A stretch of DNA of 61,357 bases, filler included, from Sluysia triapertura (Eukaryota), in NCBI GenBank assembly GCA_046118255.1. It is 5 parts of 5 records of this genome, joined end to end, with 100 filler letters (N's around TTAATTAATTAA, not from the genome) between each part and the next. Parts side by side here need not be neighbours in the genome. Positions count along the whole stretch, not along the records: positions 1 to 13,363 come from JBJNIA010044351.1; 4 more parts are not named here. One strand, 5' to 3'. The notes under the pieces are model-generated. The model made no database searches, had not been told where the DNA came from, and saw only the letters and a program-made list of their open reading frames with translations. Positions 1 through 58,295 of this stretch are shown in pieces. The position numbers and the translations under genes are program-made. The number at the start of each line of letters is the position of its first letter. The first letter of the stretch is position 1.

Positions 1-139
1 ACGAATACGAAGCATTAGATACAATTTACGAGATAATAAAACAATCGAACAATGTAAGACCATACGTAAATACGTTATGCAAGACTTTGATGTTCTCTTC
101 AGAACTGACTTCGGAAACAGTTTTTCGTGTTAATTTTTA

Positions 140-1067
140 TGTCATGGCCAAGACTGAAAGAAAAAAGAATTATTTGTTTTGCAACTTATCATTTTTATTA
201 TTTTTATCATTTTATTTTTTATTAATTTTTATTATTTTTTATATTTTTATTATTTTTATTATTTTTATTATTTTTATTAATTTTATTATTTTTACCATTT
301 TTATTATTTTTATTATTTTTATCATTTTTACAATTTAATTCAGAATTTTTAATCAATTTTGTTTCAATAAATCAATATAGATTATTGAACTAATAATTTC
401 TTTTCGGTTCTATTACCAATTCAACTGCCGGCTCATTCCATTAATGAATTTTATTAGTATTTTATGAACTTACCAAATTTATTCAATTATTAACATTTAT
501 TGGCAATAATCTTTTGAAGCACTACATTGGCATTTTTATGTTTTTAAGCTGAATTTAAGCTGAGTAAAATCATTATATTATTATTAGTAATCATTACTTC
601 TGTATAGATTATTTCTTTTATTGTAATAATACAACTACGTATTTTAAATTGATTCTTAATTATTTACTAAAATTGTGAAAAAGGCTATACCGTAATAAGG
701 ATAGCTCAATATTATAACATCAACATTTTGTTTTCAAAAAATTAGACCGTAACAGCCTAATTTAATATTTGATTTTATTAGTTAGACCGTAAAAAGGCTA
801 ACTCAAAATCGTTAAATTTATCAACCGATTTTAATAATTTAACTAAGTTAAAATCATTTAAAAACAATTCTTATCTTAAGCCTTTGTTGCTTCTATCTTT
901 TTCACAGTAAATCCTAACAGGCCGTCGTCGTTCAGACTTAAGTCGTTCTTGTTAGGTTTATTTGCATTGTAGGTTAGGTGAAACCAAAAGTATCTTTGCA
1001 GAGGGTTGTGATAGCAACCTAACATATTGATTTTCTATCTATTTGTGTAACTTTTAAGAATATAACA
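140..1067 (+). mobile_element. 5' LTR of a Gypsy-like element (start approximate), related to LTR 40695-41709
   Basis: TGTCATGG (140) ... TATAACA (1067), followed by CT-TGGAGCGGTAG (PBS-like, 1070). Shares TTAGACCGTAAAAAGGCTAACTCAAAATC and TATTTGCATTGTA..GAAACCA blocks with 41400-41630. Confidence 0.65.
190..335. repeat. Degenerate 9-bp tandem repeat (ATTTTTATT)n
   Basis: Seen directly; it explains the spurious IFIIFI ORF 87..338. Confidence 0.9.
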
Positions 1068-3421
1068 CTTGGAGCGGTAGTAATTGGAAATGTACTAGTT
1101 TTACGGCAATTTTTGACAGAGCTTCAAATAGGAAGTTGTTACAGAAAATGATCAAGAAACATTAACTCCAACTGAGCTAGAATTTCAATGCTATGGTCAC
1201 ATTTGTCAGTTATGTCATACAACTCAGTTTTTGCATCAGTCAGAGTCCACGATGTTAGTATGTGATGATGAAAATAAATTTTAGAAGGTAGTAAGAAATT
1301 AGATTTAAAGAAGAAACTAAACTTCTACAAGCAAAATTCGTTAATCAACATCATCATCAGCAATAACAGAAGTGAATAAATCATCCAGTCTTTATTTATC
1401 AGCAGAAACATGGAAAAGTAAAATCACTGAACAACAGAAAGATTAACATGAATATTGTGTTTTAAATTGTCCACATTCTTATTTATTCAGATTCATGTTT
1501 CTTTCTTCTGATGAAAATGAATTTTTAAGTGAGTAAAACTATATTCTTACTATTTGTATAGAAACAGTTGATCAGATAATTATATTAGGTCTTTTATTTA
1601 ATATCTTCAACTATTTAAATCTGACAAAACAATAACGAAAAGAACATGAAAGATTCAAAAATTGATCAAATTAACGATGGTAAAAATCCATCGTGTTATG
1701 CTGAAACAATACACAGTGTGGTAAATCCAAAATCCAAACATTAATCCTAGACAAACATCAACACAGTCCAACACATTGCTTTTAAAAAAATCTTAAACAA
1801 ACTTCAGCGTAATCCAACACAAAACATTAAATCAACAAACAAAATAAATAAAACACAAGCACAATTTTTATACATTTTAACAATCACGTAGTCTTACAAC
1901 AAAATTTATTTTTAATTATTATTAAATTATTTTTAGTAATCTTATTGCTGTTGCCTTGTTCCTACTTAAATGACTTACTAATTTTTTGTTTTATAAGTCT
2001 TGTTGTGCTGCTCTCAATATTTTTCTTCGACTATTTTAGTTACCTAAGTAAGATTTTGTGTTGTAATTTTGTTTTGTATGTGTTTTAATTTTGACACTGT
2101 TGATTGCTTCATCTGTTTAATGTATTAATGATTGTTCGATTTGTCCGTATGAATTTAAATATAATCATTTGCATATTTTGGAAAATAACTCAAAAGTTCA
2201 TCTATTTTCTCATGAAAAACAAGGAAAAAACTTTGTATGATCTTGGCATCTAACAATTTTTATAATACATAGACCTATAAGTAGAAAAGTAACACATTAG
2301 AAGTAGTTCAAAAATGCAAACAAACTGCCCAGGCCTATGTTCTTAGTTATACAAATGCCAAGGTCACTTCTTATATTATGCCAACATAATTTGGAATAAA
2401 TTCAATTCTTATAAATTAAAATTTAAGAAAATATAAACTTTTTGCTTTAAAAGTCGATTTTTCCCTTAATTTATGCAATGATATATTGAAGGAAAAGTCG
2501 ACTTTAATTTTAATTTATTGCAGGATCGATTAAAGCTCCTTTTTAAATCTAGCGAAGAACAAAAAATAATTTAAATTTTATAAAAAAAATTTAAAGCAAA
2601 TAATGTTTCTAATAAAACATATATTGGCATTGAATAAATAACTGTAACAATTTATCAGGCTTACGTTTTGACATGCCTTTCAAAAAAGGTTATATTAATA
2701 ATTGGATATTAGATAGACTAAATAATAAATATTAGATAGACTACCGCAAAACATTTTTCCAAAATCAGATAACAAATATCATTGTCATAGAAACTGTTTT
2801 TAACTTTACGTCCACTAGGGAAACAATGAGTATTACTGTAATGAACTAATTCTGACTACTTCTTTGCTTTTATCGGAATATAAACACAGGCTAAATATCA
2901 TAGTTATTGGAGTTTTGTAATAGATTGAGGTTAGAGCTTCGCAACTATAGTTCCATTTTATAAAGAGTACCTATTAATAATTATATAAAAAGAACATCTA
3001 TGGAAAATAAAATAAAAACCAATAATTAAAATAAATTAAAAATTACCTAATGAATAGTTTCATGATATCATCTATTAGTACTGTTAATTTTTATTACTTG
3101 TTTTGTTACGAATCACATGTCAAAACAGGTATTGACATTACCGAATGTTTTTTCATCCAATCATTTACTGATGAAATTACCAGATAATTCAGTGTAATAA
3201 ATATATTCGTTACATTTTCTCTGAAAGATTAAAATTACCTCATTATAGACTTGGTGAAATTAACATTAGAACATTATCAGAAAGTTTCATGCATAATGAA
3301 ATAATAATAAAAATTAATTTAACTTATAATTGTCCAAGTGACATCGGTATTATTCCGTTTTTATTAATGTCACGTTATAATAATAATAATAATCAAAATC
3401 ATAATAATATAACAATTAAAT

Positions 3422-3694: not shown

Positions 3695-4299
3695 GTTTAA
3701 ATCTACGACAAAATAGAAAGCGTCTTACGTCGTAAAGAAGGCACCTCTGTAACAAAATAAGTTAAACTAAATACAGTAAATTAAATATATACTCTTATAA
3801 CTAGAGGGTCTAATAAATTCACAAACAACTAACAGAATTATTTATTAACGAATTAAAAATTTATACAACTTGAATTATAGTACAGAATAAAGTATTCTCT
3901 ATAAAGTATAATATAGTGAAATGTTCTAAAGCAATCTGCCATCTTCTAACAAAAGTAATAATAACTTTAGAATTTATAATATTTTCACTTAATTTATTTG
4001 ATTCAAATATTTTCTCACAAAATGGTGGTATATTATTGAAATAACTTTGTGAACACACTTTAAAAGCAGAAACGATTATGCAAAACATTGTCCTTATTTA
4101 ATCATCTAAAACAATATGTAACATTACCTGCTTAAACCTGAGAAACTTGCAGAAATACGAGTGGGACCAATTGGTTAAACAAAGTGACCAGAGTAAAATA
4201 CACCAAATAATCTTTGAGTCATTTTACTTCTTATATAAAGACCCAGAATTAAATCATAAAATAAATCTGCATAAAATAAAACTTAAGGTCTCAATTATA

Positions 4300-6726
4300 G
4301 ATAAAGCCGAAGAATTTGATATAAACTTATTTAAATTATATGCTGTGGTGGCCAACCCAATAATCTGAAATTTTATTTCTTTAACACATAACAAAACATT
4401 TCACAACTCTCAATACCCCTGAACACAAAATTACAATACATCAAATTCACAATCAATACTGAAAATAATCAAAGACTAACTTAAAAAAATTAATTCATAA
4501 TAGTACAAATTTAATCCAACATACTTTACATAACATTCTAACTATTTTCCATTAAAACCTTTTTTATAATTTTTTTCTACATCTACTAAAACCTTATCCT
4601 AACCTTCTCAAAACATATCTATTTAATATTACATTCATTTTCAGAATTTATAATATAAATCAAAAAATTCATTAAAAAAATTTTATTTATAGTTCTATAG
4701 CAGTACAATCATATGTACATTTGTTAACATTGCACAACTACCCTTAGAATGTAACAAGTCTATTTATATATTTCATTTCCTTCAGATCCACTATAATCAT
4801 TTTCTTTAATATCTTAAAACACTTTAATTCATAAGTTTACAACATTCAAACCGTAATTCTAGTTAAAAACTATCAATTTACAATTTTAAGTTTATTCAGA
4901 ACATTTCAATCCACAATTTCAACATTCAAATCATACTTTCACTCAAAGCATTGATTTACATCTTTAATTTTACTTAAAACATTTTTATTTAGTTGTTTTT
5001 AAGAATAAATTAAAGAAATAGATTTATGTCAAGAAAATATTTAAATTAGAAAGAAAGTTCATGTTTTAAGATAATGAAAGTTTATGCTTTTATTTAATTT
5101 ACTATTATTATTGTCTTTAATTTTCACATTTTTGTATTATTATTATTATTATTTTATTTTTATCTATTTATCATAATTTTTGTCATTATTTTTAATTTTC
5201 ATTATAAAGACCACTATAATGGTCGCAGTTGTCATACAAAAGCACATAAACTAATTAATTTTGCTTGTCACCAGCCGACATTTGAGTTGCATTGAACTAG
5301 CATGCCGTTTCAACTGTCGACTGATGACAATTGCCTGGTGTTGTTTTCCTAGTTTGTTATGTAGTAAATCTAACCTGATTGGATTTCCAATCAGTATTAA
5401 TCTCTTTTTCAAGCAGACAAGTGTGCAAGCTCAACTGTGTATAGTAGTTATTACAAAACAAAAATCTATTTGGGTGCGATTTATGAATTATAAGTAATGA
5501 GTATTTACTGACTCTGACAACCAATCACAATATACATTTTATTTTGATTAGTAACAATGTATTTAATGTAAACTTTTTAGTGAAAATTAGTACACAAAAA
5601 TTTAGTTAATTTTATAAGCTCTTAAACATTTATCAACATTTTCAGAAATTATTCAATAATTGAATTAGAGATGACAATTTTTGAGTATTATCAATTTTAA
5701 AAAGATGCTTGATTTTACGACTATTTCACCACAATTGTAAAGTCGGAAATTATTCCGTTGCTGACATTAAAGAATTTCGAAATCGTATTAATGAAAAATA
5801 TAGTAATGAGGATTCATTAGCTGAAGTGAAAATATGAACAAATTTTATCTTAATTTAATAAATATATAGACGATCAAATAGGTATTTATGAAATCTATGA
5901 AAATTTTGATATTTCCTGTTATTTAGTACCATTAAAGTAAATCGTAAAGAATTAGAAAATAATGAATTGTTATATGCTCGTACCATGATTGTTGCATCTA
6001 TGGCTACGTGGAATAATATAATGAGTTACATTAATCGCTCGAATGTAGTCAATCAAGTGATGGATCTTTCTTTAGTACTGCATTCAAATTAAGTTCAGAG
6101 ATTATATTTAAATCAACACCACCATTGTTTTATTCTGACATCATTTGATACTATTATAACAAATCCTACTGTTTTTAGATTGCAGGCAATCATTTAAGAA
6201 TACTGTAAACTATACTAGACAAGATACAGAAATATATGGTTTAAATATTGAAAAGATGCAATCTTTTGAGGCTTTATTTATGAATGCAGAAGTAAATCTA
6301 ATACAAGATAAAATTATACTAGATCTAACACATGAGTCAAGCAGTAATGACGAAGATAATCATAAGAGGAGATACGAGAATTCTCAATTCAGCAATTTGA
6401 TTTTGGATCAATCAAGAAATAGTAATCCTATTAGTCTAAAACAAGATCACAACTCATTTAACTTTGATGCATATTTTAAATTGGCTCTCTGCCTTTATGA
6501 AACTAATCAAGAAGGTAAATGCTCAAAGTTTGGAACTAAATGTAGATATTCGCAAATAGTCAACAAACTACAAGAACTGAATTTCAATTATATGATCCTA
6601 TCGACACATCACAATAGATTAAACGATTTGTTAGCAAATATTGATATCCAAATTATAAAGACTGCCGATGACGCTACTACAATGCTATTTCAAGGAATTC
6701 ATGATGTCTCTAGCAAAGTGGCATAA
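4300..6726. repeat. Decayed divergent two-gene cassette, copy 1 (Cys-rich repeat ORF on minus, CCAAT region, ORF on plus)
   Basis: Shares TGTGGTGGCCAACC, ATCCTAACCTTCTCAAAACAT, AACATTGCACAA, TCATAAGTTTACAACA and GTCGACTGATRACA with 35430-36570. Confidence 0.7.
5375..5394. promoter_or_regulatory. Inverted pair of CCAAT boxes (CTGATTGGA-TT-TCCAATCAG)
   Basis: Perfect 9-bp inverted repeat in a GC-richer patch between divergent decayed ORFs. Another CCAATCA lies near 5521, and CTGATTGG is also present in the 36560 copy. Confidence 0.45.
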
Positions 6727-11120: not shown

Positions 11121-12185
11121 TTACAATAACAAATGTTTACATTGAAGTGAGGAGGGCATTAATATATATTTTAATTTTTGCAACATTAATTTAATTGAAC
11201 AAATTATAATTAAAATAAAACTATTTGAATCACTTTTATTTCTATTTACAAATATGGGCTTAAGGCCCGAAATGATTAAAAGCGAACATATAATTAGAAT
11301 ATTTAATGAAAAAACAAGATTAATCATCATCATGATATTTATAATACAGTATATTATATACAATGTTTTTAATAAAATTATAATAGCTAATAAACACCGA
11401 AGAGATAAAAATAAATAACCAGAATCAAAAGTCGCGGTCCATACGTAAAATGTTAGAAGCGTAGCAAAAATAGCTATATTTTCATTGTCACAATTTCCGG
11501 ATGTACTTCGACTTAAATAACCAGAAACAAAAAGAATGCCAATTATTACAAAAACTATGGTACATTTTTTTATAGTTGTAGCATAAATATTCTCACATTT
11601 ACTAACACAATTATTAATAACTTGTTGTAATTCATAAATAAGACCTTGTCTGTATGATTCTAATTCCTGTTGTAAATTATCAAAAACTTTATCATCAATT
11701 ATCAGTAAATGTGTTGATAATAAAGAACCAATTATTCTTATAGTAGCTTCAAATACTTGAACTGTTGCATCGATATCAAAATGTAAGGTATCAATAAGAA
11801 TTTGAACAACCCTTTTAAATTCAGCAATTTCATTCATTATAAATAATGTATCTAAAGTGTCCACTAAAGTTAATTGATAATTTCCAAATACATCATTAAT
11901 ATTTATATTATTTGTGTTTTCAAGATCTGGTCTTCTACCACGACAATTAATAGGATCTAGTTCATCTAAAGGATGAGCATACTTCATGTAATTTTCATAT
12001 CCAAAATGAAACATAGATTTAGCTAAATCCTTATTTACATTTTTGCTTCTTGTTTTTAAGAATTTATGAATTCTAATACTTTCCAGAAATACTTTTTGTG
12101 TTTTTATTAAGTCTGCTAAAGAATCACATAATGCAGTTAAAACGAACATTATTAACAAAATCATAAACAAGTTTTTATTCATCAT
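11121..12185 (-). CDS. Chimeric 354-aa ORF: signal peptide + N-terminal GH47 (EDEM1-like) + STT3 transmembrane fragment
   Basis: aa 52-165: MFHFGYENYMKYAHPLDELDP, NININDVFGNYQLTLVDTLDTL, VQVFEATIR (EDEM). aa ~212-305: GYLSRSTSGNCDNENIAIF..TFYVW (STT3 GYISRSxAGSYDNEGIAIF). Confidence 0.8.
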   Translation of the reverse strand: MMNKNLFMILLIMFVLTALCDSLADLIKTQKVFLESIRIHKFLKTRSKNVNKDLAKSMFHFGYENYMKYAHPLDELDPINCRGRRPDLENTNNININDVFGNYQLTLVDTLDTLFIMNEIAEFKRVVQILIDTLHFDIDATVQVFEATIRIIGSLLSTHLLIIDDKVFDNLQQELESYRQGLIYELQQVINNCVSKCENIYATTIKKCTIVFVIIGILFVSGYLSRSTSGNCDNENIAIFATLLTFYVWTATFDSGYLFLSLRCLLAIIILLKTLYIIYCIINIMMMINLVFSLNILIICSLLIISGLKPIFVNRNKSDSNSFILIIICSIKLMLQKLKYILMPSSLQCKHLLL

Positions 12186-13363: not shown

Positions 13364-13463
13364 NNNNNNNNNNNNNNNNNNNNNNNNNNNNNNNNNNNNN
13401 NNNNNNNTTAATTAATTAANNNNNNNNNNNNNNNNNNNNNNNNNNNNNNNNNNNNNNNNNNNN
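13364..13463. other. Artificial contig linker (N44-TTAATTAATTAA-N44, six-frame stop)
   Basis: Exact 100-bp pattern, repeated 4 times in the window. Confidence 0.99.
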
Positions 13464-14009: not shown

Positions 14010-14518
14010 ATGCATGAACAAATACGGCCGCGATTTACTCATTCGGTTTTTTCTATTGATCCTGCGGAAGGTACTGTTTGGCCTCATTCATCCATCGATA
14101 TTACAGTAACCTTTCGACCACCAGAAGCTCGTGAGTATTCAGCAACAGCATTTTTAGATATAACAGGCCGTGAAAATCGACTTTCATTAAAAATGCTCGG
14201 TCGTGGATTGGGACCTCGTGTTGATTTTTCGTTTCATACGTTAGATCTTGGAGTTATTTTTATACATTCTCACCATTCCTACGAATTAATTTTAGCAAAT
14301 AAAGGCGATATAGATGCATTATTTAAAATTGAACCTTTAGAAACGGCCAGTAAGGCTGTGGAATGTTTTACTTTTGTACCAGATGATGGCATTGTAAGTC
14401 CCGGTGGTCATCAAGCTGTCAGCATACGATTCCATAGTGATTCATATCTAGGTATTTTTGATGAACCCTTTCAGATACGTATGGATGGATGCATTGAAGC
14501 TTCAGAAATAAGATTCAA
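14010..14518 (+). CDS. HYDIN: HYDIN internal exon 1 of 10 in window
   Basis: FSIDPAEGTVWPHSSIDITVTFRP..DITGRENRLSL..GLGP..NKGDIDALF matches HYDIN ASH/Ig-like domains; ag/gtgagt boundaries. Confidence 0.93.
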
Positions 14519-15227
14519 GTGAGTTTTAATTTGCGTACATGAAACATTATCTTTTTTAAAATAATTTATTACAAACGAACTATTAAAGTTTGAGAAATCC
14601 ATTGACATATTTGAACAAGTCTAAAATCAAAATACATAATTAATATGACTTTGATTAATTGCGTCGTTCCCCGATCAAATGCAATGTTTAGTAAACTTAC
14701 AATGAATTAAAAATTAAATTATGGTAAGTGATTCTTGAAGCCATCGAATTTTAGAGTTTCTTTTCTGGTCAATTTGTCCATTAATTAACATTTGACCCAA
14801 TATGCTTAAAATAAAGATATTCTATAATAAAGAAGAATAACAATTCAGAGATGAATTCAATTATTAAGTACAATGATCAATTAATAACAATAATTAGTAT
14901 TAGAAATTATGAATGATAAAAAGATTTATCCAGCGGAAGGGGTTAAAGACGTTTCTTGTGATTTGTTTTGAACACACTTAAATGTTTAACTTTTGAATTA
15001 ATAAGTTAAGAAATTATTATGTGCTCTTATTAAATATAATGGTTTTGTGCCTTCTTATACTTTTAAATATTCATTTCACTCGAATAAGGATTAAAATGTT
15101 AAGAGAAGATAGTAAAGTTTGGAGTGGTAATAAAAATTAAGGATATAAACATGACATTTGGAATTATTGAATTACTTTTAATTTGTGAATGTTTTAAATA
15201 GAAACCAAATTATATGGATATTTAGTA

Positions 15228-28113: not shown

Positions 28114-28175
<62 letters not shown>
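28114..28175. repeat. (AAT)n microsatellite
   Basis: Seen directly. Confidence 0.95.
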
Positions 28176-28615
28176 TATTAATGTATAATGCGCACATATA
28201 TACTCAAAATAAATCATTTACTATATTTCTGAAACAGAAACAACTTTGCCTTTTTCTTAAATATTTCATATTCTTCCAGTAATTTGACATTCTCTGGTAG
28301 TACTAGTTGTATATTTTTGAAACACAAACGGTATATACAACAAATCAAATAACTTATTATCACTGTAGATTCGGTATAGATTATTATTGTCTCAATTAAA
28401 TATTCATCTTGGTTTCCAAATTTTTTATTATTTCTAAAAGATATTCAGTACCTCCGTAATGTAAGCATTTGTAAATTATTATTATTATGATTTTGACTTC
28501 TATTCTTGCTTTTATTGGTAAAATATAAAATAATAACTTAAAAACGGATAACAATGGCATTTCAAAGGTATAGCTTTTGTTTATGAATAATGAACTAAAG
28601 AAATTAAAGATTAAC

Positions 28616-31700: not shown

Positions 31701-34700
31701 TACAATAAATCAACATATGGATTCTTAAAATCTTATTTGCAATCATTGGCATCAAATCAATAACTGAATTATACTGAAACACATCTATTTTATTTTTAAT
31801 TATATTATTAGTATCCAAATATATTTATAATTATAAGAATAAAAACAAAATTGTTAATGTTTACACATATAAATCAGTACCCAGTAAGAATTAACAAATG
31901 AAAATTGATTTCTATTTTTTAGCAAAAGTTGCTAAAATTAAAACACTCCTAATTTTTTTCTTTTGCAATCTGATTACATATTCTTTGGATTTCTGGATTT
32001 TCCGTGCGTAAGATACATAATGTAAAAATATTAAAATAACACTTAGTAAAATGTGGAACTCTTTAGATATTCACTATTTGTGTTGATAATGGTAAATTCT
32101 TCTAAATTAAATTATAAATACTTAGTTTTCAATAAGAAACATACACATTTCTAACTGATAACAAAAAATATCTCTTGTTTAAATTAACTTTCCATATAAT
32201 TACTTTGAAATTACGAATGAGGAATACGATTTTAACATTGTTATTCGACGTTTTTAATAATAGAATACGTGCAAACTTCATTTATTTACTTTAATGAAAT
32301 ACAGATTTGATTGCGATCAATTACAACTTTCTTAAAATTACGATTTTCTTTCGAATTAAATAAATCAGTTGAAATTATGAACTATCATGAATATCGATAT
32401 CGAACAAACCGAAATTTCGAAAGAGTACATGGTAATTTTAGTTAATCCATTTCGTCAATGTTTTATTTTCTTTTTTATCTTCTACTACCTTGAATCTCCA
32501 CCTTATCTGAATCATGTAACAAATCCCTTAAAAACACAATAAAAGTTTGTCAAAAACTAAATAAAAAGTGACCTTTAAAATCTTGTATAATCATAATAAT
32601 AATGTAATAATAATAAATGGTAATGACATAATAACAGTAATAAGAACATAGTATTAATTATAAAATGAATATTATAAAAATAATAATGGAGTTAAAAACA
32701 TAATAATACACTTCCAAAAATATAATAAATTTATATGTATTGCTGATTTTATTAAAAATTATAAAATTGATTGTAAAGATTAAAACATAAATCGAAATAT
32801 GTTCTCTTTACTTTATATCTGTAGAAAATTTCTAATAGAACTATTCACAAAATTTATTATTTAATATTATTACAATATTAACATCTCCCTATGAATGAAA
32901 AGGTAAATTTTATTACTTATAATATATATTTATACTTTTTAATAATGTAAAGTTCTTGATAATTGGTTGATCTAAATTTAAATTTAATTGTTTAATGAAT
33001 TTCAATCAGACTTTGTTAACGGATTATTCACAAATTGAATAACAAATAATCAAAATCAAAAAAGGCAACATTTTCCCAAATATAAAAGTATAAAATTTTT
33101 CGGTTAAATAAGTATTAACCACAGTGATGTAAATTTCTTAAATTTTTTCCTTGAACATTGTTTTTTTATCGCATTTATTGTCGTTCCTCATTTATTTATT
33201 GTTCTTTTTATACATTAAACTTAAGAACATCTAGTTATAATTTTAAGCAAGATACTATGCTTTCACTTATTAATGAATCAATAAAAAAATAAAATTTTAT
33301 CCGTTTGTAATGTAATAAAGTAACATAATGTTAATAATTTAATATCGTTTTAAATCAATGTTTAATCGACTAATTTAATTAATAATATTTAACAATAATC
33401 ACAAACTAATAATAACTATTGAGATCATAATATCAAATCCAAATTTAGTAGTAAGTAACAGTAACTATTTTAAATTGACATTGTATAGATACAACATGAA
33501 ATCAAAATTTATAAATATTAAGCCTTATTGATTAAATAAAATCATGTTAAATTAGGATTAAATAGAGATAATATGTAATCAAAATTTACACACTATATTC
33601 GATAAAAAAATTTTAAATTAAAGATTAGAAGAAATAGAGTAGTAATATGATATTAAAATTTAAAAGCATTATGATCGATTAAAATCATTTCAAATTACGA
33701 TTAAACAAAGCTTAAAATAAAGATTTAAACAAGCATTTATGAGCGCAATATAAATTAATATATTATTATTATTATAAACCGTAGATTAATTATGTGTAAA
33801 AAAATTATGTTATGTTATAATTAATTAGTTGTGTATATAGAATTATGCTATATCACTATTTTCTGTATAAAATTAAAATTACAATATTATATGTTATCAA
33901 ATTACTATTATAAAATTATTGATTTGTAAATAATTATTACAATAATAAACCGGAGATTAGTTATTACAAGTTATATAATCTAATTCAATCAACAAATTGA
34001 AAACAATATAAAAGAAAGGATAAAAACGAAAACAGAACAAGAATACGATTGGCATAACAAGAAAATTAGTCCGCTACCAACGATTGCTATTCGACTACGG
34101 ACTATTTGATTGATTTCTATTCGAAGGACATTAATTTCGGGTCTTATTACAAGCATTGTTACAAAATCGGTTTATTATCAACAACGATTTGAACTAAGAT
34201 TATCGAATAAAATTAATTGATTTAACCACAACTATTTAACATTGATTACAATCCAATTACGATGTTTGATTTCCGGTTTATAATTATAAATTTAAAATAA
34301 ATTGAATTCAATATTTAAAAATTATAATTTAATTTCGAATTTGTTTACAAACAGATAATTTAAATAACATTTTTGTTGATTTATTTTCCTTCTTTTTTAT
34401 AAATGTCAAAGGAAGTTGGAAAGAAGAGCTTAATTAAGCTTAAAACTGCTGCAAGGTTACTAAAATAAACAAAATTTCTATAAAGTGAAATAAAGTATGA
34501 TAAAATTAAATTGAAGTGTAATTAATCAAGGAATAATTAAATAAGATAAGAATAAACAAAATTTGTAAGAAATGTTGAGAATAAATTGCTCATTAAGCAC
34601 TTCATCTCGGACAACTGCGACGAATACAACTATCTCATAATTCTCCAGATAATTATACATCGACATAAGAAGCACCAGCGATCATTAAGAACATAAAGAT

Positions 34701-39930: not shown

Positions 39931-40632
39931 GTGATATTACTCAATTATACTTTAATTCAAGTTAACATTAAACTCAGGGAGTCTAAGGATGTAGCCGACG
40001 TCAGATCTTACCTTTTTGGTTTCTTAAATAATAAAATTTTAGTTTCCATTCACCCCCGTTTTGTGATTGAAGCGCTAGACATTCCTTTTGGCTTGTCAAA
40101 TCACAACCTCATCCCTTTCTCTACTGATGACGTTTTCGTGCGTGCGAGACAGACGTTGAAGCTCGTCTACCCTGTATGTCCAAAGTTCACGTGCAAACAA
40201 TTGGCATCTGAACTTGTCACAGTGTTAGATCACATTAGGGAGAGAGACCTTGCTTTTATCCAACGCTGCAATGACCCTCCACTGTCGTTACTAAATCTTT
40301 TTCTCCTCATCCACTACCTGCTGTTTCCGATATTCATTCCCCAAAAATTTCTGTTACACAACAATGTCAAAATCAATCAGCATCATCATCTTTGGTCATC
40401 ATCGTCATCATCCCTTTCGTTCGTCTTCGTCAAACCTCAACCTCCCAAAAGAAAATCACACCAACCTTACAAAGAACATCGACACTACTTCCAAAATCAA
40501 GACCCACCAGATTTTTCGACGAGTGGGATCTTCTTGATTCTCTTCCACATCGTCCGCATAAACGAAACACTTACAGATTCGTCACCACTACATTGGCTCG
40601 AAGATGATGACGTCGACCTCGACTTCTGTTGA
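39931..40632 (+). CDS. Accessory ORF just upstream of the PPT of an LTR element (unknown, Pro/Ser-rich; true start uncertain)
   Basis: 233-codon frame in GC-richer DNA ending ~50 bp before the PPT; KPQPP motif shared with the ORF at 48861. Confidence 0.4.
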   Translation: MILLNYTLIQVNIKLRESKDVADVRSYLFGFLNNKILVSIHPRFVIEALDIPFGLSNHNLIPFSTDDVFVRARQTLKLVYPVCPKFTCKQLASELVTVLDHIRERDLAFIQRCNDPPLSLLNLFLLIHYLLFPIFIPQKFLLHNNVKINQHHHLWSSSSSSLSFVFVKPQPPKRKSHQPYKEHRHYFQNQDPPDFSTSGIFLILFHIVRINETLTDSSPLHWLEDDDVDLDFC

Positions 40633-40694
40633 TCCTTTTAACCATGTGATTCGTTTCGAGATTTGTGGACAAATCTTCTCGTTGGGGGAAGTAT

Positions 40695-41709
40695 TGTGGG
40701 GATGCTGAATCAATTAATCAAATCGACTAAATATTATAATATTTATTGACATATTTTATTATTTGACATTGTTACTTATTCTTATTATATTTAAAAAATA
40801 TTTATTTTTATTATATCAAAAACCTAATAATATTAAATAAGATTAAATTGAAATTAACTTTTTAGAATTTGAAATAATTAAATTAAAATTAAATGTTTAA
40901 AATTAAAACTAATATATGTTATTTTAATTTAAATAAATTTATATTTATTGTTTAAACAAATCATTTTTGTTTAATTTAATCAATTTTATAAACAAGCAAC
41001 ATGGCTGCTGAAAATTCTATATAAAAACCAGTAGGTTTAATGGAATTTTCAGAAGCCATTAGCTAAGAAAACATTCAATCATCTATAACTTTCCATATCT
41101 ATCAGTTTCCATGAATAAAGTAAGATTTTTTATATTAAGTTTGCCTTCTCACCGTAACTGGGAAAAATGAAATCCACGTAAAATCTTGAGTAATTTTTTA
41201 ACTTATACCGTATAAAGGATAAGTTAACATTTTATTAAACTTTATATACTAAATCTAATAATTTAGATTTAAGTGTTAAAATACGTATTGTTATTATATT
41301 TATCTTATTTTTTGTACTTTGTATGAGAAAGAAAGGTGGTTGTTATGAAGTTATATATTATAGAAGCTAAAAGGCTGGCTTAAAATTATAAAATATTTCA
41401 TAGAGTTTTCCCAAATTAGACCGTAAAAAGGCTAACTCAAAATCATCTAAAATATAAAGAATAGTTATCTAATGTTGAGATACAGTTTAATAGTTTGTAT
41501 GTGACTCTTCCGAAGTCGGATTTTAACTTTCTCTTAAAATCTTAATAGACCTTCGTCGACCAGACTAAACCGTTTCTGTTAGGTGGATTCACTCCAGAAT
41601 TCTATTTGCATTGTAAGTTTAGAAGAAACCACCTTGCAAAAAGCAAAACTATATTCAGTGTGAAATATTCCTGATTAAACAGGCATCAGATTTGCAATCG
41701 TGCCTCACA
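40695..41709 (+). mobile_element. 3' LTR (~1015 bp) of a Gypsy-like element
   Basis: PPT GGGGGAAG (40684-40691), then TGTGGGG...CCTCACA inverted termini; TATATAAA ~41018 and AATAAA ~41114. Confidence 0.85.
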
Positions 41710-44449
41710 AAGTTTCATTTCATTTCTAGTTTATCCGATTAATCCACCATACGAAATACTTTATTATGTACATTAATATGAATCACAGTACTAAAATATT
41801 ATCATGAATAATGAATTACAACAGTATGTTTCATTCAATGTATAGATTTTCCAAAAATGCGACTTTAATTCTAAATTATCTTAACAAATGTAGTTTTTGA
41901 TATTTAAAAATACTATGTATAAGTGACAATGTCTTATTAGCTATTTCCTATTTATCCGTTAATTACATTTACTATTGTTATTTCCATTATTATTAATAGT
42001 ATCAATAATTTTAAAATCATCATTATTATTATTATTACATTAAATTACATAAATTTTGGTAACACTAATAAGTATAATAATTTAAGAATAATAATTATAA
42101 TAATAGTAAAGAAATAAAATAATTGTAATAGGGATAATAAGAATAATGCACTTTAATAATAATATCATTATTTCATAAAACGGATATAATATAAGCCTAT
42201 ATTTTTTCTATAAATGGTGGTTGTAAACGCCTATACGTTTATTAATATGTAAGCCAATACAAAATTAGTTATTCTCACAATAGCACAACATAATAAAACT
42301 TAAATATTAATATAAAAATGTTGCTTTTTGAATTTGAAATATAAAAATAGACGATAATACAGAAAAACATTAAATAATAAGAATATTTGATCTAACTGGT
42401 TCAGCAAACGTATGGAAATATTATCATTATTAAATATCAGCACAAATATTAAAATCCACAAAATTAACTGGATTACAATTATTAAGGTGTTTCTGTACAC
42501 TTTAGTTTAAGTTATTTTAAGTAGATCTTACTATTCTTAAGAGGTAATTTAATATATTTCATTCTATTACATTAAGATTTAACTATTGTGCATTATGAAT
42601 CGTTGTTACTTGCGTAACCAATTTTATATTAATTGTTAGGTTATCATCACGACCCTCTAAAATCATATAAAATGCTTTAAAATTATTTACAAATCTCTAA
42701 AACACTTTAAAAAAATTATTACAGGCAAATTTAAATCTCTAAAGAAAAAGTTAGGTTTCCCCTATATGAGGGTCAAAATAGAGATAAATTAAACACCAAC
42801 AAAAGTTAAATACTAAAATAGTTTTAACTTTACTACTTATAAATAATTTGTTTCTGTCTGTTTTCTTATTATATCTATTACAATTTCTGTAAATTATTGA
42901 ACTTTTTGAGTTTTTGGTTCTCTTCATCATGTTAAAATAGTATTTGTAAAGTATCATTGTATAAAGACCCTTAAGTATTTTATAAGTATTAAATTTGACT
43001 AGAATTTTTAAGGATGTAAGATTAGAATCATGTTGCAGAAACTCAACTATACGTTGTAAGACGTTTGCTGTCAAAAAAACCAGAGCAAAATTTTAATTAA
43101 AATTTTAACCAAAAAAGATTATATTGTTTACTAACATGCCTTAATAAATATTAAAACATTTATTTATTTTGAAATATTTATTGATTTAAAATTATTTAAA
43201 AATAATCAGTAAAAAACTAAACAAAAATATTGAAATTATTTTGATAAATTTTCAGATTTTAACTTTCTTTTGTTTTTAAAATAAAACACAATGAATACAC
43301 TGACAAAAATCAAATAAAATTTGAAAATGTTTTTTTTGCCATAAGTTTTTGTACATTTTTATTATTTAAAAAACATAAAACATAAATGAATAATTAATTC
43401 CTTACTATAATACATTAAATATGCAGTGATTACATAGTTTGTTTATTATTAATTTAAAATAAATATTAATATAATAGTCTTTTAAATTTGAAAATATAAA
43501 TTTCCGGTATTTTAGTTTTATAAGTACGGAAAATTTCTTTTAAAATATTGGACAAAACCTTGCTGCTATAATTATTCCTATAATTATATCTATTGATATT
43601 AGATTGTTTCACAACATTCAACTTTTATTTGTCAACGTATTTGATGCTTCAGATTTATTTCTGACTTTTTAAATGAAAAATAATAGTTATACCAAGACTA
43701 AAATTAATTGTTCATTATTATAAAGGCTCATAAAATTTCAGAAACTTAATAATATTGTTTTTAGTATCTCATAATAGAAATTAAATAATAGAGAAAATAT
43801 ATTTTGATAAACTCAATAAAAATGTAAACAAAGTTAATTAATTGAAACAAGCATTATTAAATTTATCTACATATATTAATTGTTATCATAATAAAATTAT
43901 ATAGACTTATTGAATTTTATTTATTCTGAGTGTAACAATAATAATAAATTTTAGACAATGTTTTTAACATTATATTTTTATTCAAACAGATATTTTAAAT
44001 GCCTTTTATGATAGAAATTGGAAAATTTTTTGTTTGAATATTAAAATTTTAGAAATATATATATATGATATAAGAGATTTTTTATTAACTTACATTTCAT
44101 CTGATTTTATTAACGAATAAATCAAAAATATTTGACTAATAGTTTATTTTTCATAGTATATCTTTAATTTTTGACAATGTTAAAATAGAAATTCAGAGAT
44201 TAAAATGAAAATATATTTCAAGCAACATTTAAAAAAATTTAAAACGTGAAGTGCTCAAGTTATCGAAAAATAAGGAAAATTCTCACTTGGTGACGAAAAT
44301 GAGGCAATATTAGATATCTGTATTGATGACGTTAATTCTAATTTTGTGTTATTTTATTAGATTTTAAAAAATAAAAGATTGGCTTATGAAGACTTCATAT
44401 TAAGTCAACTATAACTAATAATATAGTTTTAACAGTGGTATATTTCAAT

Positions 44450-44698
44450 CAATTTCATATAGAAAAGTGAAAAAATTACAATTAATAATTAATCAAGCAG
44501 CAAGACTAATTTTCGAAGTCGAAAGATGATTTAATGTAACGCCTTATCTTAAGGAATTAAACTGGTTGCCAATAAAAGCAAAGGTAGAATTCAAAATGGT
44601 GACGCTAACTTACAGACGCTTATATTAAGGAAGTCCTGAATATATCTCAGAAATAATAAAAAATTTGGAAACCAAGATGAATATTTCATTGAAACATA
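44450..44698 (+). mobile_element. LINE (L2/Crack-like) ORF2 C-terminal fragment
   Basis: VTPYLKELNWLPIKAKVEFK; closely similar to 55600-55769 plus 58012-58090; stops abruptly at TGTCATGG. Confidence 0.8.
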
Positions 44699-48621: not shown

Positions 48622-48860
48622 ATGGTTGTTGTAATTCTTTAAGAATAAACGTGAAGCATTTGTATGTATACATTAAATATATTTGATATTTGTTGTACTT
48701 TTATATTTTTATAAAAAATTAATAAGTTTAATCTCGATGCGTGAAGTCCACTTAAATCAGCCTAGCCGTGTAGTTGGCACATGATAGACGATCGTTAAAA
48801 AATATAGGAGATTTATATATAAGTTACTATTTTAATTTCAACCTTTATTCTATATTAAAA

Positions 48861-49169
48861 ATGCTGGGTCCTATTTGTAGGAACTGTTTAAATGAGTATT
48901 ATTTTGTAAGTTATCATTGTGGACATAATTATGACCAAAAATGTGTTGTAGATCTTTTTCACAATGATAATACGAAGTTTCCAACTTCTGCCCTTTGTAG
49001 AGCTGAAATAACAGGTTACACCTTGTTTTTTAAAGGTTCTTTTAGAAATAATTTTCAATTTAAACGTACTTCTTCACCTTCTACTTCACCTTATCAACCT
49101 CCCAAATATCATTTCAACAAACCTCAACCTCCGCCACTTGATCTTTCACCCATCACAACGATAATATAA
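48861..49169 (+). CDS. Degenerate C3HC4-type RING-finger ORF with Pro-rich tail
   Basis: CRNC-x10-CGH-x2-D-x2-C...SALCR; two ligand positions are substituted. Confidence 0.6.
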   Translation: MLGPICRNCLNEYYFVSYHCGHNYDQKCVVDLFHNDNTKFPTSALCRAEITGYTLFFKGSFRNNFQFKRTSSPSTSPYQPPKYHFNKPQPPPLDLSPITTII

Positions 49170-49296: not shown

Positions 49297-49970
49297 GGGA
49301 TAAATATAAAATATATAAAATATAAATATAAAATATATAATAAATAAACATAATGCTTATTCTTCATAAAATAACTCATAAACTCATTGCAATAAAATAA
49401 TCATCATTCTTAATAATCAGCATTTTTAATAAAATATAATATTTAAACATATTTTTAATAAAATATCGGTTTAAAAATATTAAGAATATAATGCTTTGGT
49501 ATCAATTTAAAATGAGATTACATATAGTTAATATAAATTAAAAATTTAATAACAAATAATAATTAAATTTAAAGTGAAAATGTAGAAATAATTATTTTAA
49601 AGTAAGATTCTATAAAGTTAATATGAGATTAAAATTTATAAATATTAAATCTTACTATTATATCTTACTATTAAATCTTACAATGTATCCTAAAATAAGA
49701 ATTAATAACAATATGAAATTAAAATGTAAGCATCAGAACTTATTATTGTATTCAATAAATCATCTTAAATTAAGAATCAATAACAGTAATATGAAATCAA
49801 ATTTTAAGAACATAAAATCCTCTCAAAATTATCTTAAAAACATGCTTTAGAATATATAAAATAAATTATATGTAATAAAAATTTAAAAGCACCATTATCG
49901 CATAAAATCATATTAAACTGAAATTGAATAGAACTAGTATATAATTAAAAATTAACTTAAATGAAAGAAG
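49297..49970 (+). repeat. AT-rich repeat, probably the 3' LTR of the gag-pro-RING element; second copy at ~51300-51680
   Basis: Preceded by TTTGGGACAAAGCTT (compare TTGTGGACAAATCTT before the PPT at 40665). 49490-49960 aligns with 51330-51580. Confidence 0.5.
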
Positions 49971-50070: not shown

Positions 50071-50185
50071 AAGTTCTTTCTGTTTCAGAAATACTATGGT
50101 GAATGATATACCATAAGCGCTTTTGAGTACTTTCGCGATAGATATGAGCGCCATATAAATTAATATATTATTATTATTATTATTT
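50071..50185 (+). mobile_element. LINE 3' end with GCGCT..AGCGC stem and (TAT)n tail
   Basis: AAGCGCTTTTGAG...GAGCGCCATATAAAT plus TAT repeats, typical of L2-clade tails; matches 58210-58290. Confidence 0.75.
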
Positions 50186-51736
50186 AAATGTAAAAACTGA
50201 ACTCAAAAAAAGACATCAAGATCGATATAACACTGATAGAATAATAAATCAATGACTTTTTTGTAAAGCGATCAAAAAAGTAATATAAAGTTTTCTCAAA
50301 CAAAAAAGATTAAAAAATTAAAATACGACTAAGTTATCGATAATAAAAGAAGTGGAAATCTTCAAATCATTTAGTGCTAAGTCTGGAAAATAAAAATAAA
50401 GCAGTGATTATTTAGTGACTATGTAAATTACTTGAACCATATCTACTAGCTTATGGTTATTTCAAAGGTGTATATAGTATGGAAATACAATTCGGATATG
50501 TAAATACGTTGTTAAATATAAAATACGAAGGTCAGGTGATGTATAAAATGAAGTATACGTTTGATAGGGTACGTACGTTTATTTATTTTTCCATCGCGCG
50601 TAATATTTTATGAATTTTAAAAATTTAACATGTTAAAGAAAATTAGTCTAACTTTATGACACATTCGCTTAATAATGATATAGGTATAACAAGGGCATTA
50701 TGTTACAGAGAGCAAAAATGCATGGCTGTCGGTTTGGCGACATTAATACAACCATGTTGTAATGGACAGCCAGACTTTTAGATATGAAGATGTTCCAAAA
50801 GACGACATACTAAATCTACATTTTGTACCAAAAAATAACCCTTTAGAATGTTTATAAAGGCATTTAATTTTGATATTTCATATTGCTTTTTTACAATAAT
50901 TTCAAAAGGACCTAAACCTTATATTTTACGAAATAACAGACGAATGTAAAAACTAATTTAAACATTGTATTCAAGACTATTTCAGTTTGTTTTGACACTT
51001 ATCGAAGGCATATCCAAATTGCACGACTGAACGTAATCGATTAAATCATGTTAAATCGTTCGAGTTCGAATTTTCAAATTGTTTTAAAAAGAAAATATGA
51101 ATTTTATCTACAATTAACTATACTTAACTGTAGAAAAGCTACCATGGATAATTTTTAAAAATAAACGAAATAAAATGTGTCACGTCTTAATCAAATTAAA
51201 TAAACAAATTGTAATCAGACTCAGCAAAAAAGACTTTCACAAACATAGTGTAACATAATATTCATTAATTTTTAAAACCTAAAATTGATTTAATTTAAAT
51301 TTATTTAAAATAAAAATTATTATAAAATTTAATGCTTTGCATCAATTTAAAATGAAATTTAATAGAGTTAGTATAAATTTAAAATTTAATAATAAATAAC
51401 AATTAGTTCTGGATTAAAATAAAATATATAATTATTTTAAAATGAGATTCTATAAAGACAATATAATATTAAATTTTAAGAACATAAAGATTATTCTAAT
51501 ATATTAAATTGAGATCGAGTAAAATTAGTATACAATTAAAAATTAATAACATTATTCTCGATTAAAATTAACTTAAATTAAAGATTGAGAGAATAATGTT
51601 ATATCAAATTTTAATCGAGAAAAAGCATATTAAAATAATATTCAATATAAATTATATGCAATCAAAATTTAATAAAATAAATATTTAGACGGGAAGCAAT
51701 ATTTATCATTGTTTATTATTATCATTGTACAAATTA

Positions 51737-53094: not shown

Positions 53095-54665
53095 GCTACA
53101 TTTTTCACATATATTATTTGTTTTGTGCCAAAGTCGTACTTGACAAAATTTGCGTTTGTGATAATGGGTTGCAGTTGATCTTTGTGGGTCTTCATGTTCT
53201 GATAAATTTTTCTGTCTTGAAACTCTAAATTCGTTGGAAAGCTGTTCTGCTAATTGAAATAAGAACTATTCGTTCTATTTGTATTCCTGTCTTTTCTTTG
53301 CAAATGATCCAAGCATTTATGGCAGCCAAATCTAAAATATTGAAAAATATTTGGAGGAGTTATCCACGAGAACTGTATATTTCCTAGCCATTTGATCCTC
53401 CATATCAACTCCAAATTTTATACTGTTATAAAATTGAATTGATTCCGGTAACATTTTTATTACTTTTATCAATTTTAACAAATTTATGCTTAGAACTTAG
53501 AACAGCTACTTTTTTATTTGGTTTGCTTTTATATATTGTAAGAACACAATTCTCTGATTTACAGAGCAAAGTGGAAAAACGAAGCATGCTATTCTTCGTT
53601 AGTTTGGCTGCTTTGGGTAGTTCTCTTTTGTTTCCTCTAATAGCTCCAACTAGAGTTGATATTTTGCCAATAATTTTGTCGCGAGTGACACGCTAGTTTG
53701 TTTATGGCTCGACAAGTTTCAGAACAACGTGTTCACTGAGAAGCATTAACGATGATTGTTGTTCATCTTTCCCTAAATAAGGAAAACCATTCAAAATATA
53801 TTTGCTACTAACATCTGTCGCAAACCTAAGTTTGATGCCAAATTTGTTGGGTTTATTAAGCATATATTGTGTAAACCTGCATCTGGCTTTTGAAGGAAAT
53901 AATTGCTTGTCAAATGTTATATTTTGCCCTGGTTGATAGCAAGCTTGACAATTTTCAATAAAACTGTCCCATATTTCCGAAACCAAGGCAAATTTATTTG
54001 TTTGTAGGAGTCCACTTCTTTCGGCTCTTTTGTCAAAACGAATAAATCGTTTGATTTTCTTGAACCTTTTCCTGGTCGTAGTTTCTCTAAAAATTTTGGG
54101 ATTCCACTTTGCTGACCATAAATAACTCAGTTTTAAATTTTTTGCGTCGCAGGCTCCACAAGCATATAAAATCCCAATAAATGTATTTATTTCCGGTAAT
54201 GTTGTTGTCCAATCGTTCCTCAAAATTCTACTTCTGTTTGATAATATAGTTATCTATTATCAACGAGAATGCACTGATAAGGTTATCTACTAAAATGTTC
54301 CTTTTAGTGTAACCTGTTGGGCCTTTCACACCCTTGAATACAAGTGGATGGTAACCTTCATCAATTTTTGTCCACACTGTACCATCAGCAGCTGTTTCGA
54401 CCTTCTGAAACGTATTTTCAGTTTCTTCAGCAGAATCTGAACTACTTAGCACCATACACTTTTTCTTGGGTATATTGATGACACTTTCATTTTCATCATT
54501 GGTGATCGACTCTTCATCGCTATCTTCAGCGTCAGATGTTTCACTTTGAATATAATCCGCTTCATCTTCAGATGATAGTTCAGAATTTGTTGCATTTGAT
54601 TCTATATCGGAGCACTCTTCACTTATGTTCGTTAGCTTTTCCAATAACTCATTTATGTTCGACAT
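53095..54665 (-). pseudogene. piggyBac transposase pseudogene (frameshifted, 3 segments)
   Basis: Acidic N-terminus; RFIRFD, NITFDKQLFPSKARC, YMLNKPNKFGIK, TLVGAIRGNKRELP, YNSIKFGVDMEDQ and a C-terminal Cys-rich remnant. TIRs not confidently seen (TTAA at 54882 is a candidate end). Confidence 0.92.
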
Positions 54666-54889
54666 TTTTTTCTTGAAGAAATAAAATAAGCAACTTGTTA
54701 GAACAACACTTTATAAAGACTCGAATAACAAGTACTACTTTAGCTTATTGAGCAACTGCAACTTATCAAGTATACGCCCAAATCGACAATTTATCATGCA
54801 TCGGTATGTTACGGTAATCGGTAAGCTGAGAATCACTGGCTTACAGACCTATATCAAATAAAACACTCTTATCAAAATTGGTTAAAAAA

Positions 54890-55769
54890 TAAATTTTACA
54901 ACAATTGTCAAAGTTCTTGGATGAAAATAAACTTCTTACAATGTATCAATCAACCTACAGAGCCTATCGCTCTACAGAAACGGCTATTTTAAGAATAAAT
55001 TATGATATTTTAAATTGTTTTATCCCTCGTTTAATGCAACAAAATGGTTTGAGTGGCACTTAAAAGAAAGAAGGCAATTAAATTTGTGTTAAGCTTGGAG
55101 TTCCTCGGGGATTAAACCGTGGTCCATTATTGTTTATAACATATGATGTTTCAAGTGTAATTGAATCATATTGCTTTAAATATGATACATAAGCTGATGA
55201 CGTGCAAATATATATTGAATTTGAAATGAACAACATAGAAAATACTACTCAAAGAACAGAAGAAGTATCTTAATTGATAAAAATGGTTTGGAAATAAGTA
55301 CTTGAAAGTTAATGAAGAAAAGTGAGAATTTATCATCTTCAGTAATAAAAAAGCGACAATACCAAAATAAATGAAACAAAGTTAATTGTAGGTGGTAAGA
55401 TACTAGATGCGAAACTAAAAGTACGAAATATAGGCTGTTATATGGATTCAAATATGAACATGGAAGAAAATATTAATTGTATTGTTAAATATCAATTAAA
55501 GAAAATCTTAAATATTCGAAAATTTATTAATAAGAAACAGTTAATCTAATTGTTCATTAATTGATTCAAACATAGATTTTAACAATGGCATGTTGTACTA
55601 AATTTCATATAGAAATGTGAAAAAATTACATTTAATAATTAATCAAGTAGCAGGACTAATTTTTCAAGTGGGAAGATCTCATGTAACACCTTATCTTAAG
55701 GAATTACATTGGTTGCCAATAAAAACAAGAATAGAATTCAAAATTATGATAATAATTTACAAATGCTTA
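54890..55769 (+). mobile_element. LINE (L2/Crack/Daphne-like) RT remnant, 5' part
   Basis: QSTYRAYRSTETAIL, GVPRG..GPLLF, (Y>stop)ADDVQIY, HVTPYLKELHWLPIKTRIEFK. Confidence 0.88.
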
Positions 55770-58011: not shown

Positions 58012-58295
58012 CTTACGTTACGGAAATCCTGAATCTCTTAGAAATAATAAAAAATTTGGAAACCAAGATGAATACTTCATTGGGACATAATAATCTTTAC
58101 AGAATCCACAGTGATAATAAGCTAGGTGTTAGGTTATATACCGTGTGTATAACAAATATATAACCAGCTGCCAGAGAATGTCAAATTATGAAATATTTAA
58201 GAAAAAGGCAAAATTCTTTCTGTTTCAGAAATATTATAATGAATGATTTATTTTAAGCGCTTTTGAGTACTTACTTTGCAGTAAATATGAACGAA
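58012..58295 (+). mobile_element. LINE remnant, 3' part (continuation of 54890-55769)
   Basis: GAAATAATAAAAAATTTGGAAACCAAGATGAATA shared with 44650; tail shared with 50071. Confidence 0.85.

What the first reader, a model, noticed from the sequence alone, without database searches (positions are those of the whole stretch)
683..803. Array of bulged-A stem-loops (stem-A-CC-GTAnnAA-GG-stem) in the LTR U5 region
Seen: GGCTAT-A-CC-GTAATAA-GG-ATAGCT (683-706), AAATTAG-A-CC-GTAACA-GC-CTAATTT (739-763) and AGTTAG-A-CC-GTAAAAA-GG-CTAACT (780-803). The loop and bulge are constant while the stems differ. Inference: repeated protein-binding hairpins in the genomic RNA leader (packaging, Gag or export signal), architecturally like the bulged-A MS2 operator.
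Basis: partly seen in the sequence, partly recalled or inferred. Interest (0 to 1): 0.7.

Follow-up and report, generated by a model that had tools for sequence, protein, structure and literature searches.

The report
Bulged-A hairpin array in retroelement leader
Thousands of copies of a retrovirus-like jumping gene in this animal genome carry a row of small hairpins whose paired letters change together while a bulged A stays put, and their place just after a predicted splice site suggests they likely tag the full-length RNA for one of the element's own proteins, much as HIV's Rev system does.

Summary
The three hairpins are real (window 683-706, 739-763, 780-803; the middle one has a broken inner pair in this copy). 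They are hairpins 3-5 of a five-hairpin array in the LTR of a high-copy, Burro-like Ty3/gypsy element (Gag, BCL2-like, fusion glycoprotein, Pol, accessory ORFs). Stems covary: 92.6% paired against 60% shuffled in 207 contexts, 14 different perfect stems, 22 compensatory changes on a tree. A sister lineage keeps the same shape with other stems and loops (3,585 matches, control 20), and the inner two pairs covary, which fixes the bulged A. The array lies after TATA and an ATG-plus-splice-donor whose phase matches the acceptors of the accessory ORFs, and before the PBS, so it is predicted to stay only in unspliced RNA. Likely binder: the element's RING protein with an arginine-rich motif (Rev-like, 0.38) or Gag (0.30). 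No binding, RNA or strand evidence; 'U5' is unproven; a third lineage has the motif protein but only one divergent hairpin. No Rfam match or paper found. The scan noted hairpin-rich non-coding units elsewhere in this genome (e1-9087918); identity with this one was not tested.

The parts
550..1000 (+). 5'-truncated LTR piece (R/U5 side) of a Burro-like Ty3/gypsy element, ending TTTGCA; flanks on both sides matched no other fetched locus
683..706 (+). Hairpin 3: stem, bulged A at 689, CC/GG, 7-nt loop; followed by the conserved unpaired AA (+8/+9) and T (+12)
739..763 (+). Hairpin 4: bulged A at 746, 6-nt loop; one inner pair broken in this copy
780..803 (+). Hairpin 5: bulged A at 786, CC/GG, 7-nt loop
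909..957 (+). Conserved block near the LTR end, long imperfect hairpin by single-sequence folding; consensus folding shows no covariation
39931..40632 (+). Decayed piece of the last accessory ORF (ORF460) of a second copy
40684..40694 (+). Polypurine tract before the second LTR
40695..41638 (+). Second, full-length 3' LTR of the same family (TG...TGCA)
41018..41025 (+). TATA-like box, preceded by a conserved AACATGGC block
41111..41126 (+). ATG, three codons, then donor-like GTAAGAT at 41120 (phase 0)
41145..41168 (+). Hairpin 1 of the second LTR, decayed
41198..41227 (+). Hairpin 2 of the second LTR, 9-bp outer stem
41414..41437 (+). Last hairpin of the second LTR, one mismatch

Best explanation
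The LTR carries an array of covarying bulged-A hairpins that likely fold in the element's RNA and likely act as repeated landing sites for the element's own RING protein with an arginine-rich motif, marking the unspliced genome RNA in a Rev-like way. Shown: the array, its covariation, its fixed strand and its place between a donor-like site and the PBS; the conserved RING plus arginine-rich protein. Inferred: transcription starts after the TATA box; a three-codon ATG exon is spliced to the accessory ORFs, which removes the array and the PBS; unspliced RNA keeps them; several protein copies load on the hairpins (bulge, UAA loop, 3' AA tail) and hold off splicing or decay or license export, so that Gag-Env-Pol is made and the genome is packaged.
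For: Covariation within and between positions; loop length varies freely, as in a hairpin and not a duplex site; inner pairs switch CC/GG to TC/GA or CT/AG (61 of 81 TC hairpins among the first 100 listed carry GA, hand count). The array starts about 30 nt after the donor in two lineages and no hairpin-bearing core was seen on the sense strand of the pol-to-accessory internal regions. Donor phase follows acceptor phase: 28 of 32 donors with an upstream ATG are phase 0 (6, 9 or 12 nt); in lineage A 13 of 13 donors found are phase 2 and its RING and ORF460 frames have phase-2 AG sites and mostly no own ATG; 5 of 5 PPT-linked loci with an acceptor candidate had one in the donor's phase. The arginine-rich motif is kept between RING proteins only about 47% identical overall and scores weakly on Pfam REV (E 0.035, 0.19, 0.8).
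Against: No binding, expression or splicing was observed. The REV scores are below the curated cut-off and the same basic stretch scores on RNase P; it may be only a localisation signal. Lineage B keeps the arginine-rich motif but 0 of 6 aligned LTRs have the CC/GG array; they have one divergent hairpin about 80 nt after the donor, bulged in some copies and perfect in others. Wobble counts give no strand: G-U 27 against A-C 34, 123 against 116. One locus without a PPT (L073) has a phase-0 donor LTR behind a phase-2 ORF. If R is long, spliced RNAs would also carry the array at their 3' end.
Confidence: 0.38

Rival explanations
1. The hairpins are RNA packaging signals: repeated sites where Gag nucleates on the unspliced genome, placed after the donor so that spliced RNAs lose them.
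For: Same structural and positional evidence. Gag with a CCHC knuckle is present. [quoted passage not shown]
Against: The exposed bases are mostly A and the Gs are paired, whereas zinc knuckles usually favour exposed G (own knowledge). Lineage B has only one divergent hairpin.
Confidence: 0.3
2. A host RNA-binding protein reads the hairpins on the nascent RNA to control elongation, use of the donor, or silencing of the 5' poly(A) site.
For: The first hairpin sits at a fixed short distance from the donor. An element just after the major donor is needed for elongation and stability in MMTV, and U1 binding at the donor blocks 5' polyadenylation in HIV-1 and foamy viruses (PMC12789967, passages).
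Against: No Rfam family matches; of 26 first-listed genome matches, 8 of the 9 without an LTR hit had stems of only 0-2 pairs, so host genes do not obviously use the motif. Loops differ between lineages, as a co-evolving partner would allow.
Confidence: 0.14
3. The hairpins act in single-stranded DNA or in both RNA and cDNA during reverse transcription (strong-stop DNA, strand transfer).
For: Stems are almost purely Watson-Crick: 671 WC, 7 G-U, 37 mismatched of 715 cells; both strands fold; no strand bias in single changes; the region lies between the predicted start and the PBS.
Against: The conserved unpaired A bulge, UAA loop and AA tail suggest base-specific reading on the sense strand; a neighbouring hairpin carries a C(UUCG)G loop on the sense strand in two related copies.
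Confidence: 0.12
4. They are double-stranded DNA sites for a transcription factor, or by-products of tandem duplication.
For: Units of about 40-50 nt are tandemly repeated in some copies.
Against: Five different stems in one LTR, each self-complementary, 22 compensatory changes on the tree, variable spacer length and covarying inner pairs do not fit a duplex site or drift.
Confidence: 0.04

Closest known systems
Burro (GYPSM1) giant gypsy-like LTR retrotransposons of planarians (PMC6431247; section 7 read whole)
   Same: Gag with CCHC knuckle, BCL2-like domain, mononegavirus-type fusion glycoprotein between gag and pol, PR-RT-RH-IN, accessory ORFs, high copy number.
   Different: Apparently smaller; no BIR, MATH, ankyrin or SMC domain was seen in the pieces examined; a second protease follows integrase; 3' TM, RING/arginine-rich and exonuclease-like ORFs. 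The section read says nothing on LTR hairpins or splicing.
Rev/RRE, Rex/RxRE, Rec/RcRE export systems of complex retroviruses (recalled; only reference titles seen)
   Same: Small accessory protein with an arginine-rich motif, predicted to come from a spliced mRNA; structured cis element; need to handle unspliced RNA.
   Different: Five separate 24-nt hairpins instead of one large multibranch element; protein has a RING finger; no export signal identified; Pfam REV score below cut-off; host element is Ty3/gypsy.
Retroviral Psi packaging signals (PMC13736810; passages)
   Same: 5' leader stem-loops whose position relative to the major donor can exclude spliced RNA.
   Different: Here the array lies inside the LTR, upstream of the PBS, and is made of near-identical modules with A-rich loops.
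MS2/Qbeta/PP7 coat-protein operators and operator-like packaging stem-loops (PMC10610835; passages; bulged-A layout recalled)
   Same: Short stem of free sequence, a bulged A, a short upper stem, A-containing loop; repeated copies.
   Different: Loop of 5-9 nt; conserved 3' tail; no coat-protein homologue found in the element; no common descent implied.

Membership tests
Ty3/gypsy LTR retrotransposon | LTR with TG...CA ends, PPT before the 3' LTR, TGG PBS after the 5' LTR | tested here: met
   seen on separate contigs, not on one complete copy
Ty3/gypsy LTR retrotransposon | Pol order PR-RT-RH-IN | tested here: met
   L152; linked to RING and ORF460 on the same contigs
Ty3/gypsy LTR retrotransposon | PBS complementary to a host tRNA 3' end | tested here: inconclusive
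   PBS-like 17-mer in 3 places; no matching tRNA gene found
Burro-like elements | BCL2-like domain and fusion glycoprotein between gag and pol | tested here: met
   PF00452 E 0.0017 (below cut-off); PF24664 E 1.6e-46 upstream of PR
Burro-like elements | Giant size (internal up to 25 kb, about 5,000-aa ORF) with BIR, MATH, ankyrin, SMC motifs | tested here: inconclusive
   none of these domains in the ORFs scanned; no complete copy examined
Burro-like elements | RT phylogeny with named Burro elements | not tested
   no named Burro sequence was available from the tools
Rev/Rex-type response element | Element-encoded arginine-rich protein | tested here: inconclusive
   conserved motif; REV E 0.035-0.8, below cut-off
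Rev/Rex-type response element | Accessory protein made from spliced mRNA | tested here: inconclusive
   donor/acceptor phase concordance; no RNA junction seen
Rev/Rex-type response element | Specific binding and export of unspliced RNA | not testable with these tools
   needs bench work
Psi packaging signal | Selective Gag binding and packaging | not testable with these tools
   needs bench work
Any Rfam family | Covariance-model match | tested here: not met
   0 matches at E up to 10 in window 1-3000

The most novel reading that the evidence does not exclude
A Ty3/gypsy (metavirus) lineage has independently evolved a complex-retrovirus regulatory circuit: an LTR mini-exon spliced to several accessory genes, and a Rev-like RING protein with an arginine-rich motif that reads a modular array of MS2-like bulged-A hairpins on unspliced RNA, with hairpin loop variants differing by lineage. 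This would be a natural, eukaryotic, orthogonal hairpin-protein tagging pair.
Probability: 0.33. Interest if true: 0.85.

Novelty: new variant of a known kind. Interest (0 to 1): 0.64.

Why it matters
How Ty3/gypsy elements pick and export their unspliced RNA is poorly known, and Burro-like elements with an envelope gene have been proposed to be proviruses (PMC6431247). This gives a 24-nt, naturally covaried motif and two named candidate binders, so the question can be tested with short RNAs and peptides. A positive result for the arginine-rich protein would show Rev-like control outside Retroviridae and could supply a new RNA-tagging module. The motif also marks this element family in planarian-type genomes.

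Tried and rejected
Rfam: no match. RNA runs: no RNA holder listed, no evidence either way; read laying not used. Strand by wobble pairs: uninformative. Poly(A) signal: AATAAA/ATTAAA not at one conserved position in 38 segments, so R and U5 are unmapped. Motif in other organisms: 6 metagenome and 1 viral match were unrelated tandem repeats without the stems; no loci for P0003 or P0004 in viral contigs. Word-based homologue searches found nothing for ORF460 or the RING protein; PDB sequence search gave RING domains only, no Rev in the 60 of 67 rows shown. ORF460 model is low confidence (pLDDT 44.9); its cupin-like fold hits are weak leads. Consensus folding of the LTR end block: 0 of 9 pairs with double changes. 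Hammerhead or HDV-like ribozyme in that block: considered by eye, core motifs not conserved. PBS tRNA gene not found. One search printed nothing (script option error; redone in 69); the pair counts were wrong through a regex slip and are replaced. Complex prediction was not used: it cannot score RNA.

Full report
Observation. The three strings lie at 683-706, 739-763 and 780-803. The first and third fold as a 6-bp stem, a bulged A, two C-G pairs and a 7-nt loop (z -2.7, -3.7). The second folds only as a 7-bp stem because this copy has GC where relatives have GG. Rfam gave nothing for 1-3000. The window is an AT-rich animal sequence made of joined contigs. Earlier scan notes call the genome a planarian; I did not test that, though the element type agrees. 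A core scan found 6 matches in the window, all on the + strand and all in two copies of one repeat.

What the repeat is. Window 600-1100 has 948 candidate relatives, 40 scored, and many of the matches end at about window 1000. Full copies are about 1 kb, start TG after a polypurine tract and end TGCA. Four loci continue into a TGG primer-binding site (L051, L102, L103, L104). The window copy matches relatives only from 550, so it is a truncated piece; 40695-41638 is a whole 3' LTR. Overlapping contigs give the order Gag with a CCHC knuckle, BCL2-like domain, mononegavirus-type fusion glycoprotein, PR-RT-RH-IN, a second protease, membrane ORFs, a RING ORF, ORF460, PPT, LTR. No single complete copy was seen. 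This matches the description of planarian Burro elements, with env between gag and pol (PMC6431247, passages and section 7 whole).

The array. Full LTRs of the window's lineage hold five hairpins, about 30, 85, 280, 340 and 380 nt after a donor-like GTAAG, which lies about 90-100 nt after a TATA box. The window shows hairpins 3-5. Genome-wide the bare core occurs 8,361 times against 4,084 for the reversed control. Of the 26 first-listed loci, 17 hit a family LTR; 8 of the other 9 had stems of 0-2 pairs. Among 233 distinct contexts in fetched loci, 207 lay in LTRs on the sense strand, 3 antisense and 23 outside. In the 207, 92.6% of cells at stem pairs 1-5 were paired, against 59.8% on shuffling (maximum 64.1% in 1,000) and 25-54% when slid; 14 different perfect 5-bp stems occurred. 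An unpaired AA at +8/+9 (200 and 202 of 207) and a T at +12 (188 of 207) are also kept. On a tree of 37 LTR segments built without the hairpin columns (one duplicate mis-cut row dropped), pairs 1-5 of the five hairpins needed at least 22 changes from one Watson-Crick pair to another; 671 of 715 cells were Watson-Crick, 7 G-U, 37 mismatched. A hand-picked alignment of 32 hairpins gave 93.4% paired against 71.7% shuffled, and 56 double-change cells against 17.9; two rows were misaligned by one base and count against the structure.

Sister lineages. Lineage A has LTRs that BLAST does not align to the window's, yet carry the same shape with CAAC/GTTG stems and mostly TTAA or ATAA loops: 3,585 matches against 20 in the control. 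The inner pairs vary together (CC/GG 46, CT/AG 8, TC/GA 7 of 72). Among the first 100 of 708 listed matches of a T-variant pattern, 81 had TC, of which 61 had the compensating GA, 16 GG and 4 other (hand count). This fixes the register and so the bulged A. The AA tail and +12 T persist. Lineage B has no such array in 6 of 6 aligned LTRs, only one divergent hairpin about 80 nt after its donor. Tandem duplication of 40-50-nt units occurs and likely built the array, but cannot explain the compensated stems.

The donor is likely real. Just upstream of it is an ATG at a fixed distance: 9 nt in 21 rows, 12 in 4, 6 in 3, 8 in 2, 15 and 16 in one each, none in 13, of 45 rows that include loose matches. 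In lineage A, 13 of 13 donors found among 36 rows are at 8 or 11 nt. The RING and ORF460 frames are preceded by pyrimidine-rich AG sites: phase 0 in the window's lineage, phase 2 in lineage A and L088. Of 10 loci with ORF460, PPT and donor in one piece, 5 had an acceptor candidate and all 5 had one in the donor's phase; L188 also had an out-of-phase one. L073, without a PPT, disagrees. Splicing from this donor would remove the array and the PBS, leaving them in unspliced RNA only, unless R is long enough to repeat the array at the 3' end. No poly(A) signal is conserved in position, so 'U5' stays an inference.

Who binds. The RING ORF ends in an arginine-rich motif kept between proteins about 47% identical, with sub-threshold Pfam REV scores and no homologue in a word-based search. 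Arginine-rich peptides bind bulged or looped hairpins in other systems (abstract starts in the listing; otherwise own knowledge). I rank a Rev-like role first (0.38) because an element with several spliced mRNAs must protect and export unspliced RNA, and because the exposed bases are A rather than the G that knuckles usually favour (own knowledge). Gag packaging follows (0.30; PMC13736810 and PMC10610835, passages), then host-factor control near the donor (0.14; PMC12789967, passages) and a single-stranded DNA role (0.12). Against my reading: lineage B has the motif protein without the array; the wobble test gives no strand (G-U 27 against A-C 34; 123 against 116); nothing here shows binding or expression.

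Novelty. Eight paper searches listed no description of such hairpins in Burro-like or other gypsy LTRs; apart from the four papers cited I saw listings only. The original Burro paper (Grohme 2018), its supplements and Repbase entries were not seen and could bear on this. Pattern scans of metagenome and viral contigs found only unrelated repeats, so the motif is shown in one genome only. Verdict: a real, well-supported structured motif, a new variant of retroelement leader signals, in a known kind of element; mechanism inferred. Interest 0.64.

Noticed in passing
L069:871-2373; window 39931-40632: The last accessory ORF (about 460 aa) has 8 distant relatives; two carry an RNase_T (DEDD exonuclease) domain, while the acidic residues look lost here by eye. 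The N-terminal part models as a beta domain with weak cupin-like hits.
   Followed up: partly
L152:2402-7387: A second aspartic-protease domain follows integrase in the same frame, then a signal-peptide-like stretch and membrane ORFs.
   Followed up: no
L102 about 1047-1070; L089 about 5010-5035; window 551-559 and about 41250-41273: Another covarying hairpin after hairpin 2, with a C(UUCG)G loop in two related copies; the window's truncated LTR begins at its 3' arm.
   Followed up: partly
window 909-957 and about 41540-41585: Strongly conserved block near the LTR end, also recognisable in the distant L088 lineage; the window copy lacks about 17 nt just after it.
   Followed up: partly
L097 reverse strand, about 4290-4440 (lineage B LTR): Donor-like site without an upstream ATG in most copies, while this lineage's RING and ORF460 carry their own ATG; a single divergent hairpin follows.
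   Followed up: partly
L021, L184, L073: LTRs of one lineage sit inside or right behind elements of another lineage.
   Followed up: no
window N runs at 13364, 25850, 38508, 49971: The window is several contigs joined by N spacers; features on either side of a spacer are not neighbours.
   Followed up: yes
window 14010-14522, 11121-12185, 6160-6726: Host gene pieces: HYDIN Ig-like exon, glycosyl hydrolase 47 piece, CCCH finger.
   Followed up: no
window 53702-54710 (-): Two overlapping ORFs that look like a piggyBac-type transposase by recalled motifs; not tested.
   Followed up: no
window 48774-49169: Short ORF with a RING-like cysteine pattern.
   Followed up: no
window 28157-28521, 44420-44698, 50071-50184, 55569-55770, 58009-58312; 33455-33712, 49473-49935, 51313-51687: Two other dispersed repeat families.
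   Followed up: no
L052:1-567: ORF just upstream of an LTR that resembles a death domain by eye; no Pfam support.
   Followed up: no
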